DNA of 64,000 bases from the human T2T-CHM13v2.0 reference genome, Homo sapiens (GCF_009914755.1 NC_060927.1); one strand, 5' to 3'; shown: positions 18,509-19,174, counted from the stretch's first letter. Program-made: numbers and translations. The notes: generated from the letters alone by a model not told the origin.

Positions 18509-18678
18509 TGTGCGACAAGCTCGTCAAAGTTTTCATCGGGGCAGTATTTGCGAGGACGGCCTCGTTGAATATGGCGGCCACGTTTAAACTCTTCATCATC
18601 AACTGTCCAAAAGGACCCAAACTCATCCTCTACTCTGATAAAGCACTTATGCAGTGAGAGGTTGGTGCGAATGGCACC
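18509..18678 (-). CDS. FOXP1: FOXP1 alternative forkhead exon 18b (FOXP1-ES): [56 protein letters not shown](H), 170 nt
   Basis: Acceptor tatcccag, donor ACA|gtaaga. Paralogous to exon 19053-19174 (shared [11 protein letters not shown] and WTVD--EF). Both lengths are 2 mod 3. Confidence 0.95.
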
Positions 18679-19052
18679 CTGGGATAGGAGCAGCAGCAAA
18701 GGAGATGGAGTGGCAACAAAAGGAGACGGGGTTGGGGGCAGAACAGACATCCAATACAGGGAACAGGAAAAAGAAAATAAAATGCAATAAGCATAAGCAA
18801 ATGGTTTGTGAGGGTTAATATGCATTGCCACCTAAAAGCTACTAGCATGTGATGCAACAAAGACCAGCAAGCAGGGCAGGGGGACTGGTGGGTATACAAA
18901 ACAGGAGGGATGAAATGCTTTTTTGCTTCCCTTAACTGAGACAACGTGAAACCAGTTCTTTGGTCTAACACCATCTAGCAGCCAAAGCCTCTACGTTATA
19001 CTTGTTAGCACAATCCAAGCTAGGCTAAGAAGTTCAAACATGGTGGACGTAC

Positions 19053-19174
19053 CCACTGATCTTTTGTGGCCTTCGTTTTTGGAATTCTACTTCATCCACT
19101 GTCCATACTGCCCCTTTAACGTTTTCTACTCGCACAAAACACTTGTGAAGACTAAGATTATGACGCACTGCATT
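19053..19174 (-). CDS. FOXP1: FOXP1 canonical forkhead exon 18 ([41 protein letters not shown]), 122 nt
   Basis: Acceptor tgctgcag, donor TGG|gtacgt; encodes forkhead helix 3 (RHNLS). Confidence 0.98.

What the first reader, a model, noticed from the sequence alone, without database searches (positions are those of the whole stretch)
18509..19174. Tandem duplicated, mutually exclusive forkhead exons that swap the DNA-recognition helix (FOXP1 exon 18/18b switch)
Seen: two paralogous exons of 122 and 170 nt, both phase 0 to 2, separated by a 374-nt intron. They encode [27 protein letters not shown] versus [27 protein letters not shown]. The helix-3 residues N511 and H515 (677-aa numbering) become G and T, and the wing becomes acidic. 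Established: this is FOXP1-ES, the embryonic-stem-cell isoform with altered DNA specificity that promotes pluripotency genes (Gabut et al. 2011). It is the most important system in the window but it is not new.
Basis: partly seen in the sequence, partly recalled or inferred. Interest (0 to 1): 0.85.

Follow-up and report, generated by a model that had tools for sequence, protein, structure and literature searches.

The report
FOXP1 exon 18/18b forkhead switch
Two ancient duplicate exons of the human FOXP1 gene are used one at a time, giving the protein two different DNA-reading surfaces; this is a well-documented stem-cell splicing switch, so the finding is real but not new.

Summary
Confirmed and already known. 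On the minus strand, 19053-19174 (122 nt) and 18509-18678 (170 nt) are AG/GT-bounded exons, both phase 0 to 2, 374 nt apart. Their translations are 24/44 identical (E 3e-16) and both match Pfam Forkhead. Helix-3 positions 1 and 5 change N to G and H to T.

This is FOXP1 exon 18/18b, "isoform B" or FOXP1-ES. It was described by Santos 2010 (PMC3002244, read) and Gabut 2011 (not held, seen through reviews), and MBNL1 is its main repressor (PMC8189919).

Added here:
- Frame arithmetic enforces exclusivity.
- Synonymous sites between the two exons look saturated.
- The 18b peptide is 80-100% conserved across jawed vertebrates.
- B-type exons occur in arthropods and separate from A-type exons on a tree.
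- The human genome holds only one B-type exon.
- An AlphaFold model with 18b keeps the FOXP fold.
- The 200 nt upstream of 18b hold the window's highest YGCY density.

One detail I did not find in print: B-type exons carry an almost invariant RGRPRK (AT-hook-like core) just after the last helix, and no A-type exon does. Pfam's AT_hook threshold is not met, and a nuclear-localisation role is an equal rival.

The parts
23436..23537 (-). [quoted passage not shown]
   Evidence: 102 nt, frame 2 of the joined upstream exons reads through with no leftover; hub annotation
19053..19174 (-). Exon 18 (A-type): helix 3, strands S2/S3, short wing and helix H5 of the canonical forkhead domain. N511 codon is 19172-19174 and H515 codon is 19160-19162.
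   Evidence: 122 nt, AG/GT, phase 0 to 2; Pfam Forkhead 32.9 bits against a cutoff of 27; PDB FOXP2 2a07_F E 4.2e-21 and FOXP1 2kiu_A E 3.1e-20
18679..19052 (-). 374-nt intron between the two alternative exons. It is pyrimidine-rich and carries 13 YGCY (MBNL-type) motifs.
   Evidence: 13 YGCY against a window mean of 3.76 per 374 nt (0.5% of windows reach 13); composition alone would give about 7
18679..18878 (-). The 200 nt upstream of exon 18b. This is the densest YGCY cluster of the whole 64-kb window and the inferred MBNL repressor landing site.
   Evidence: 11 YGCY, which equals the maximum over all 200-nt windows (mean 2.0, sd 1.55; fraction of windows reaching 11 is 0.00017)
18689..18698 (-). 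Three back-to-back UGCU motifs inside the polypyrimidine tract, at -20 to -11 from the 18b acceptor
   Evidence: motif starts at -20, -17, -14; sequence
18509..18678 (-). Exon 18b (B-type, FOXP1-ES): the alternative second half of the forkhead domain plus a 16-residue longer tail. G codon is 18676-18678 and T codon is 18664-18666.
   Evidence: 170 nt, AG/GT, phase 0 to 2; Pfam Forkhead 23.6 bits for the exon alone and 90.2 bits for a whole domain carrying it; 80-100% peptide identity in vertebrate FOXP1 isoforms
18547..18564 (-). Codons 39-44 of exon 18b, encoding RGRPRK: an AT-hook-like basic motif directly after helix H5
   Evidence: Pfam AT_hook 12.8 bits, below the cutoff of 17.4; GRPRK invariant in 52/52 distinct vertebrate segments; GRP in 190 of 195 T-type segments and 0 of 67 H-type segments; predicted coil with low pLDDT
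18635..18636 (-). Internal AG inside exon 18b. Used as an acceptor after exon 18, it would keep the frame (126 nt retained).
   Evidence: 7 of 120 database gene models show this junction; not in the hub's RefSeq exon list, so possibly a predictor artefact
17234..17303 (-). Constitutive downstream exon 19. It begins TAACCC, so a direct exon 17 to exon 19 junction gives an immediate in-frame TAA.
   Evidence: both exons skipped: stop at codon 1

Best explanation
These are the two mutually exclusive, paralogous exons 18 (A-type) and 18b (B-type) of FOXP1. Each encodes the second half of the forkhead DNA-binding domain: recognition helix 3, the two strands, the short wing and helix H5.

Exclusivity. 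Splicing picks one exon. Both are 2 mod 3 in length, so taking both or neither breaks the frame, and only single-exon mRNAs are productive (shown by arithmetic; decay of the broken mRNAs by NMD is inferred).

Protein change. Exon 18b keeps the fold but differs in three ways:
- It replaces the two base-contacting helix-3 residues, N to G and H to T.
- It makes the wing acidic.
- It adds a longer basic tail containing RGRPRK.
The resulting isoform therefore reads DNA differently. Published protein-binding-microarray preferences are CGATACAA against GTAAACAA, and the isoform drives a pluripotency programme in embryonic stem cells.

Regulation. In differentiated cells MBNL1/2 repress 18b. I infer that they do this by binding the dense YGCY cluster in the 200 nt upstream, including three UGCU motifs within the polypyrimidine tract, which would hinder recognition of the 3' splice site.

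Origin. The exon pair comes from a tandem exon duplication at the base of Bilateria. The B copy is kept in FOXP1 and lost from FOXP2, FOXP3 and FOXP4.
For: Anatomy and frames:
- Exon boundaries, lengths and phases are as stated.
- Including both exons gives a stop at codon 57, inside 18b. Skipping both gives an immediate TAA.
- The mouse 15-17 junction is reported to give a premature stop (PMC8989529 passage).

Paralogy and age:
- BLASTP of the two translations gives 24/44 identities, E 3e-16.
- Nucleotide identity is only 56/93, and 13 of the 20 identical residues use different codons. This fits an old duplication under protein-level selection.

Conservation and phylogeny:
- Of the 120 best of 157 hits, 113 carry the B-type helix 3. 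They come from mammals, birds, squamates, amphibians, teleosts, gar, sturgeon and a shark, at 80-100% identity.
- Named arthropod proteins (insects, Daphnia, Hyalella, Halocaridina) hold a B-type exon beside an A-type one.
- A tree of 95 distinct 31-residue segments separates A from B with 1 change. SH-aLRT is 99, and 87 after dropping the two columns that define the groups.
- In the human genome the 18b peptide finds itself, and after that only A-type exons on four loci.

Fold:
- An AlphaFold2 model of an 18b-bearing orthologue has pLDDT 87-97 over the forkhead domain.
- The model superposes on FOXP2 2a07_J (TM 0.96, rmsd 0.6 A) and on FoxP3 chains (TM about 0.94).

Regulation:
- There are 11 YGCY motifs in the 200 nt upstream of 18b, the window maximum.
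- A CRISPR screen confirmed MBNL1 as the dominant suppressor and MOV10 as an auxiliary factor (PMC8189919 passages).

Function:
- Passages in PMC11701043 and PMC13044900 cover the pluripotency role.
- Structural reasoning on N550 and H554 is in Santos 2010.
Against: - Nothing in the sequence contradicts this reading.
- No RNA data can be examined here, so usage, tissue specificity and NMD of the non-productive forms rest on the literature or on inference.
- The primary papers for the ESC function (Gabut 2011) and for MBNL binding (Han 2013) are not held.
- Santos 2010 found the B isoform in several adult mouse tissues, so it is not strictly ESC-restricted.
- Santos 2010 predicted relaxed rather than new specificity.
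- Exon 18b alone scores below Pfam's Forkhead cutoff (23.6 against 27 bits).
- The YGCY enrichment is partly compositional: about 7 are expected by base composition in the 374-nt intron, against 13 seen.
- With the defining columns removed, the A/B branch is only moderately supported (87), and the program warns of a long-branch join.
Confidence: 0.95

Rival explanations
1. The B isoform acts mainly by losing sequence-specific contacts. It would have relaxed or lower specificity and could act as a modulator or dominant-negative partner in FOXP dimers, rather than gaining a distinct recognition code.
For: - Santos 2010 modelling: N550 and H554 are the only residues making direct base contacts in the FOXP2 complex, both are replaced in the mouse B isoform, backbone contacts are retained, and the authors predicted relaxed specificity.
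- G and T at these positions are invariant in 52/52 distinct vertebrate segments.
Against: - Review passages report distinct preferred 8-mers for the two forkhead domains by protein-binding microarray (CGATACAA against GTAAACAA) and distinct target gene sets (citing Gabut 2011, which I could not read).
- Very strong conservation of the whole B exon, tail included, argues for a positive function.
Confidence: 0.2
2. Exon 18b is a recent or vertebrate-specific duplicate of exon 18, with alternative splicing arising independently in vertebrates and insects.
For: The two exons lie in tandem, 374 nt apart. The N to G change is seen only in vertebrate-type sequences.
Against: - Synonymous sites between the two exons look saturated: 13 of 20 shared residues use different codons, including AGT/TCA serine.
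- Vertebrate and arthropod B exons fall on one side of a single branch.
- The shared marks (T in helix 3, the E-D-D/E-F-G-S wing, the RGRPRK tail) occur in both phyla.
- Santos 2010 reached the same conclusion.
Confidence: 0.03
3. Exon 18b is a non-coding 'poison' or pseudo-exon whose inclusion only lowers FOXP1 output.
For: Inclusion together with exon 18 gives a premature stop.
Against: - Used alone it keeps the frame to the normal stop.
- The peptide is 80-100% conserved from shark to human.
- The domain folds confidently.
- Protein-level detection of 18b inclusion is reported (PMC8189919).
Confidence: 0.02

Closest known systems
FOXP1-ES / FOXP1 isoform B (human exon 18b, mouse exon 16b)
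   Same: It is the same exon. The coordinates match the RefSeq alternative exon in the hub's table, the peptide matches annotated FOXP1 isoforms at 100% in primates and other mammals, and the published features (mutually exclusive with exon 18, altered forkhead residues, MBNL repression) fit the sequence.
   Different: Nothing differs. This report only adds sequence-level detail: the frame logic, the YGCY map and the conservation of the tail.
Drosophila FoxP isoform B exon (formerly CG32937) and other invertebrate FoxP B exons (Santos et al. 2010)
   Same: It is the orthologous alternative exon. It carries T in place of the helix-3 H, an acidic wing and an RGRPRK tail, and it groups with 18b on the tree (paper).
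   Different: Arthropod B exons keep N at helix-3 position 1, where vertebrates have G. In Drosophila the B exon is the last coding exon (paper), whereas human 18b is internal and followed by three shared exons.
TCF3 (E2A) E12/E47 mutually exclusive exons 18a/18b
   Same: This is another transcription factor in which two mutually exclusive exons yield isoforms (E12 and E47) with different effects on a target gene in hESCs (listing and abstract of PMC6120717). That the two exons are duplicates and encode the DNA-binding region is recalled, not in that abstract.
   Different: It is a bHLH protein, not a forkhead, and it is regulated by hnRNP H/F rather than MBNL. I saw only the search listing and abstract.
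AT-hook motif (Pfam PF02178; the R-G-R-P core of HMGA-type minor-groove binders, core recalled)
   Same: The 18b tail contains R-G-R-P flanked by basic residues, lies in a predicted disordered stretch next to a DNA-binding domain, and is invariant.
   Different: It scores 12.8 bits against a cutoff of 17.4 for the isolated exon, and 0 of 27 full-length B-isoform proteins match at E <= 1. No binding data exist here. It could equally be part of a nuclear localisation signal.

Membership tests
Forkhead domain (Pfam PF00250) | Profile match above the gathering score | tested here: met
   Exon 18 alone scores 32.9 bits against a cutoff of 27. Exon 18b alone scores 23.6 bits, below the cutoff. A whole domain carrying 18b (P0083) scores 90.2 bits, and 27 of 27 B-isoform proteins match.
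Forkhead domain (Pfam PF00250) | Winged-helix fold | tested here: met
   In the AF2 model of P0083, pLDDT is 87-97 over residues 81-180. Foldseek gives FOXP2 2a07_J TM 0.96 with rmsd 0.6 A, and FoxP3 9d22_G TM 0.94.
FOXP subfamily | Closest to FOXP1-4 forkhead domains, and presence of the FOXP coiled-coil/zinc-finger region | tested here: met
   The seven best PDB sequences for both exons are FOXP1-4 chains. FOXP-CC (PF16159) is present in 25 of 27 B-isoform proteins.
B-type (isoform B) FoxP exon | T in place of the helix-3 H (FOXP2 H554) | tested here: met
   Codon 5 of 18b is ACC, encoding T. T is invariant in 52/52 distinct vertebrate segments.
B-type (isoform B) FoxP exon | Groups with invertebrate B exons, apart from A exons | tested here: met
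   The tree has 95 rows and needs 1 change of label. SH-aLRT is 99, and 87 with columns 1 and 5 dropped, with a long-branch warning. The alignments are short (29-31 columns).
Mutually exclusive exon pair | Adjacent, homologous, same phase; double inclusion or double skipping is non-productive | tested here: met
   Both exons are 2 mod 3. Including both gives a stop at codon 57, and including neither gives an immediate TAA.
Mutually exclusive exon pair | Transcripts contain one or the other exon | not testable with these tools
   No RNA data are available. This is stated in PMC11701043 and PMC8989529 passages and implied by the hub's RefSeq table.
Mutually exclusive exon pair | Competing intron RNA pairings (docking/selector type) | tested here: not met
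   Within 17200-23600 only A/T-run inverted repeats were found, and there is no Rfam match in 17000-24600. This feature does not define the class in mammals.
MBNL-repressed exon | YGCY cluster in the upstream intron near the 3' splice site | tested here: met
   There are 11 YGCY in the 200 nt upstream, the window maximum, and three UGCU at -20 to -11.
MBNL-repressed exon | MBNL binding, and dependence of splicing on MBNL | not testable with these tools
   Literature only: MBNL1 knockout gives 18b inclusion (PMC8189919). Han 2013 is not held.
AT-hook (Pfam PF02178) | Profile match above the gathering score | tested here: not met
   The isolated exon scores 12.8 bits against a cutoff of 17.4, E 0.12. 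0 of 27 full-length B-isoform proteins match at E <= 1.
AT-hook (Pfam PF02178) | R-G-R-P core flanked by basic residues, in a disordered region | tested here: met
   RGRPRK lies at codons 39-44. The model shows coil and low pLDDT after helix 172-182. The core consensus itself is recalled.
AT-hook (Pfam PF02178) | Minor-groove binding to AT-rich DNA | not testable with these tools
   No DNA-complex prediction or binding assay is available here.

The most novel reading that the evidence does not exclude
The B-type exon may do more than swap two helix-3 residues. From arthropods to humans it also carries an almost invariant RGRPRK, an AT-hook-type core, immediately after helix H5, roughly where other forkhead proteins have wing 2 (wing 2 position recalled).

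This tail may make minor-groove or backbone (or RNA) contacts. Such contacts could compensate for the lost base-specific hydrogen bonds and help set the distinct DNA preference and affinity of isoform B / FOXP1-ES.

It is older than the vertebrate N to G change and appears not to have been remarked on in the texts I could search.
Probability: 0.25. Interest if true: 0.45.

Novelty: already known. Interest (0 to 1): 0.22.

Why it matters
FOXP1 exon 18b is a textbook case of a single alternative exon re-wiring a transcription factor's DNA recognition and thereby cell identity (pluripotency against differentiation). FOXP1 is also a neurodevelopmental disease and lymphoma gene.

For the scan, the value is as a positive control. 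A reader without tools recovered the exon pair, its phases and the key residue changes correctly.

The only possibly fresh lead is the RGRPRK tail, which is conserved and specific to the B exon. If it contacts DNA, the accepted 'two helix-3 residues' explanation of FOXP1-ES specificity is incomplete, and constructs lacking the tail would misreport its binding.

Tried and rejected
- Long-range RNA pairing that could enforce exclusivity: within 17200-23600 only A/T-run inverted repeats were found (one search was a format error that I corrected), and there is no Rfam family in 17000-24600. I dropped this idea.
- Naming the taxon of the divergent 'S-type' B exons (P0174, P0188): the last homology search found no named close relative (8 hits, all vertebrate, insect or unnamed). 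Their origin stays unknown.
- AT-hook membership by Pfam: below threshold for the isolated exon, and absent in 0 of 27 full-length scans. It is kept only as a resemblance.
- Relic B exons beside FOXP2, FOXP3 or FOXP4: the own-genome search gave 13 matches at E <= 10. The five best are 18b itself and four A-type exons, on C23, C3 (exon 18), C6 and C7. The other eight have E >= 0.36 and are on other loci. Assigning the C23, C6 and C7 hits to FOXP3, FOXP4 and FOXP2 rests on recalled chromosome positions. Degenerate relics could escape this search.
- Reading Gabut 2011 and Han 2013: neither is held.
- Splice-site strength scoring: no scoring matrices are on the script machine, so I described the sites only qualitatively.

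Full report
**1. Observation**

The gene runs on the minus strand.

- 19053-19174 is a 122-nt exon. Its acceptor is ...cttgctgcag| and its donor is |gtacgt.
- 18509-18678 is a 170-nt exon. Its acceptor is ...ctcctatcccag| and its donor is |gtaaga.
- They are separated by a 374-nt intron.
- The upstream exon (23436-23537) ends on a complete codon.
- Each alternative exon leaves two bases, and the first base of exon 19 (17234-17303) completes that codon.
- Both spliced products run to the same stop codon at 5745. The 18b product is 16 residues longer.
- BLASTP of one against the other gives 24/44 identities, E 3e-16.
- Counted back from the stop, the first residue of exon 18 is 167 residues from the C-terminus. 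That makes it N511, and the H four residues on is H515, in a 677-aa protein. The length is recalled, because the 5' exons lie outside the window.

**2. What the two exons encode**

- Exon 18 matches Pfam Forkhead positions 49-84 of 88 at 32.9 bits.
- Exon 18b matches positions 50-83 at 23.6 bits. That is below the cutoff of 27 for the exon on its own.
- A whole forkhead domain carrying 18b scores 90.2 bits, and 27 of 27 B-isoform proteins match Forkhead.
- Against PDB sequences, exon 18 is nearly identical to the FOXP2 and FOXP1 chains (E 4e-21 and 3e-20).
- Exon 18b is only a relative of every solved chain. The best is FOXP3 at E 3.5e-10, and FOXP1 2kiu is at 8e-08. No B-type forkhead structure turned up in this PDB copy.
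- I made an AlphaFold2 model of an 18b-bearing orthologue (P0083, 201 aa, with a 27-row alignment).
  - pLDDT is 87-97 across the domain.
  - Helix 3 spans the exon junction.
  - Two strands follow at 157-162 and 165-170, then a last helix at 172-182, then coil.
- The model superposes on monomeric FOXP2 2a07_J at TM 0.96 and rmsd 0.6 A, and on FoxP3 chains at TM about 0.94.

The fold is therefore kept. The differences are helix-3 positions 1 (N to G) and 5 (H to T), the wing (E-N-V-K to E-D-E-F, net charge 0 to -3) and the tail.

**3. Exclusivity**

- Both exons are 2 mod 3 in length.
- With both included, the frame shifts and stops at codon 57 counted from the start of exon 18, which is inside 18b.
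- With both skipped, exon 17 runs straight into TAA at the start of exon 19.
- A passage of PMC8989529 reports the equivalent mouse 15-17 junction as a frameshift with a premature stop.
- Degradation of these forms by NMD is inferred from the general rule, not shown here.
- I found no intron-intron pairing of the docking/selector kind. There are only A/T-run inverted repeats and no Rfam match.

**4. Age and relatives**

Divergence between the two exons:
- Nucleotide identity over the 31 ungapped codons is 56/93.
- 13 of the 20 identical residues use different codons, including AGT/TCA serine and CGA/AGA arginine.
- This is the signature of an old duplication held by selection on the protein.

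Vertebrates:
- The 18b peptide finds 157 proteins at E <= 0.001, of which 120 are listed.
- They are named FOXP1 isoforms from primates and other mammals (mostly 98-100%), a parrot, squamates (96%), amphibians (86-95%), teleosts (80-93%), gar, sturgeon and a catshark (93%).
- 113 of the 120 carry the B-type helix 3. The other 7 are models that join exon 18 to an internal part of 18b.

Other animals:
- The word-free search of 1.84 billion representatives gave 493 hits at E <= 0.001.
- Among the 145 representatives not already held (P0121-P0265 of the 150 listed), many short or full-length proteins have N-A-I-R-T-N helix 3.
- A profile search names such proteins as insect (Diptera, Lepidoptera, Hymenoptera, Hemiptera, Coleoptera, a louse) and crustacean (Daphnia, Hyalella, Halocaridina) FoxP. 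They often have an A-type exon just upstream in the same model.

Tree and genome:
- I built a tree of all 95 distinct 31-residue segments (33 A, 61 B, 1 other), with the tail left out on purpose.
- It needs one change of label. SH-aLRT is 99.
- With the two group-defining columns removed, support is 87 and the program gives a long-branch warning.
- The alignment is very short, so this is corroboration rather than proof.
- In the window's own genome the 18b peptide hits itself. The next hits are only A-type exons, on C23, C3 (exon 18), C6 and C7 (E 2e-8 to 2e-6). After those come unrelated forkhead loci at E >= 0.36.
- All of this reproduces Santos et al. 2010, whose Results I read in full.
  - They place a tandem exon duplication at the base of Bilateria.
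  - The B exon is kept in FoxP1 and lost in FoxP2, FoxP3 and FoxP4.
  - H to T is common to B exons, and N to G is added in vertebrates.

**5. Regulation**

- The sense strand of the 64-kb window averages about 1 YGCY per 100 nt.
- The 374-nt intron has 13. About 0.5% of windows of that length reach 13, and about 7 are expected from its own base composition.
- The 200 nt upstream of 18b have 11. That is the maximum of all 200-nt windows (fraction 0.00017).
- Three UGCU motifs lie at -20 to -11, inside the polypyrimidine tract.
- The 200 nt downstream have 7.
- Published work identifies MBNL1 as the dominant suppressor of 18b, MBNL2 as partly redundant with it, and MOV10 as auxiliary (PMC8189919 abstract and passages; PMC13044900 passage).
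- That MBNL acts by occupying this cluster and hindering 3' splice-site recognition is my inference. The primary CLIP paper (Han 2013) is not held.

**6. Function**

- According to a review passage citing Gabut 2011, 18b replaces 18 in human ESCs.
- The canonical domain prefers GTAAACAA and the ES form prefers CGATACAA on protein-binding microarrays.
- FOXP1-ES stimulates OCT4, NANOG and other pluripotency genes and is needed for efficient reprogramming.
- Santos 2010 predicted relaxed specificity, because N550 and H554 make the only direct base contacts in the FOXP2 complex.
- Santos 2010 also detected the isoform in several adult mouse tissues. I keep this as a mechanistic rival and as a caveat on 'ES-specific'.
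- I could not read Gabut 2011 itself.

**7. A detail not found in print**

Evidence for the motif:
- The 18b tail reads ...R-G-R-P-R-K at codons 39-44 (18547-18564). This gives a weak Pfam AT_hook hit of 12.8 bits against a cutoff of 17.4, E 0.12.
- G-R-P-R-K is invariant in 52 of 52 distinct vertebrate 18b segments, whereas positions 45-47, 50, 55 and 56 vary.
- Over all 337 proteins held, 190 of 195 distinct T-type segments carry G-R-P in the tail, and 189 of them carry R-G-R-P.
- The 5 exceptions are truncated models or models spliced differently.
- 0 of 67 H-type (A) segments carry it.
- In the model the motif follows the last helix directly and is coil with low confidence.

Evidence against calling it an AT-hook:
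- The Pfam threshold is not met.
- 0 of 27 full-length proteins match AT_hook at E <= 1.
- A basic tail could simply be a nuclear localisation signal, as is said of the end of FOXP forkhead domains (recalled).

Literature searches:
- 227 papers hold at least 2 of 5 terms and 25 were listed. None of the listed papers pairs AT-hook with 18b or FOXP1-ES. AT-hook occurs 0 times in Santos 2010, in PMC8189919 and in PMC11701043.
- RGRPRK with forkhead found 0 papers.
- FoxP, 'AT hook' and alternative exon listed 15 of 321 papers. Only a MeCP2 review and a SETBP1 paper hold both of the first two terms.
- Gabut 2011 and its supplements, and the domain databases, were not visible.

**8. Verdict**

The finding is real and correctly interpreted, and it is already known. 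I score its interest low because nothing here would surprise a specialist. The RGRPRK tail is a modest lead worth a bench test.

Noticed in passing
window 18547-18564 (-): RGRPRK (AT-hook-like core) lies in the tail of exon 18b. It is invariant in vertebrate and arthropod B-type exons (190 of 195 distinct segments carry GRP) and absent from all 67 A-type segments. Pfam's AT_hook threshold is not met. I did not find it mentioned in the searchable literature.
   Followed up: partly
window 18635-18636 (-), first retained base 18634: An internal AG lies inside exon 18b. Spliced after exon 18, it would retain 126 nt in frame and insert 42 residues (a second wing plus the RGRPRK tail) behind a complete canonical forkhead domain. 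7 of 120 public gene models (P0010, P0011, P0013, P0039, P0040, P0045, P0098) use exactly this junction. It is absent from the hub's RefSeq exon list, so it may be a gene-predictor artefact.
   Followed up: partly
window 18588-18590 (-): Two public gene models (P0286, P0292) end exon 18b early, after 89 nt at an internal GT. This stays phase-compatible and drops the whole basic tail (...WTVDDED then exon 19). It is probably a predictor artefact and is untested.
   Followed up: no
window 18309-18508 (-): The 200 nt downstream of exon 18b are also YGCY-rich (7 against a window mean of 2.0) and begin with a long U-run. Whether this side contributes to regulation is unknown.
   Followed up: no
proteins P0001-P0007, P0121, P0122, P0266-P0274 and others: Many deposited vertebrate and arthropod FoxP gene models contain both the A-type and the B-type exon in one protein (two forkhead second halves in tandem). 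These are annotation errors caused by the mutually exclusive pair. In several insects the B exon is also annotated as a separate small protein.
   Followed up: partly
proteins P0174, P0188, P0232 (unnamed sources): This is a divergent class of B-type exons. It has S at helix-3 position 1, a K/R-R-C-E-D wing and a tail closer to the vertebrate one (K-G-R-H-x-K-R-G-R-P-R-K-Y). No named relative was found, so the taxon is unknown.
   Followed up: partly
own genome, G000:C23:48663226-48663342 (-): Among A-type exons, the X-chromosome hit (presumably FOXP3, by recalled position) is the closest to 18b (E 1.9e-8, 59% over residues 2-40). It is closer than FOXP1's own exon 18. FOXP3 chains also top the PDB sequence search with 18b.
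   Followed up: no
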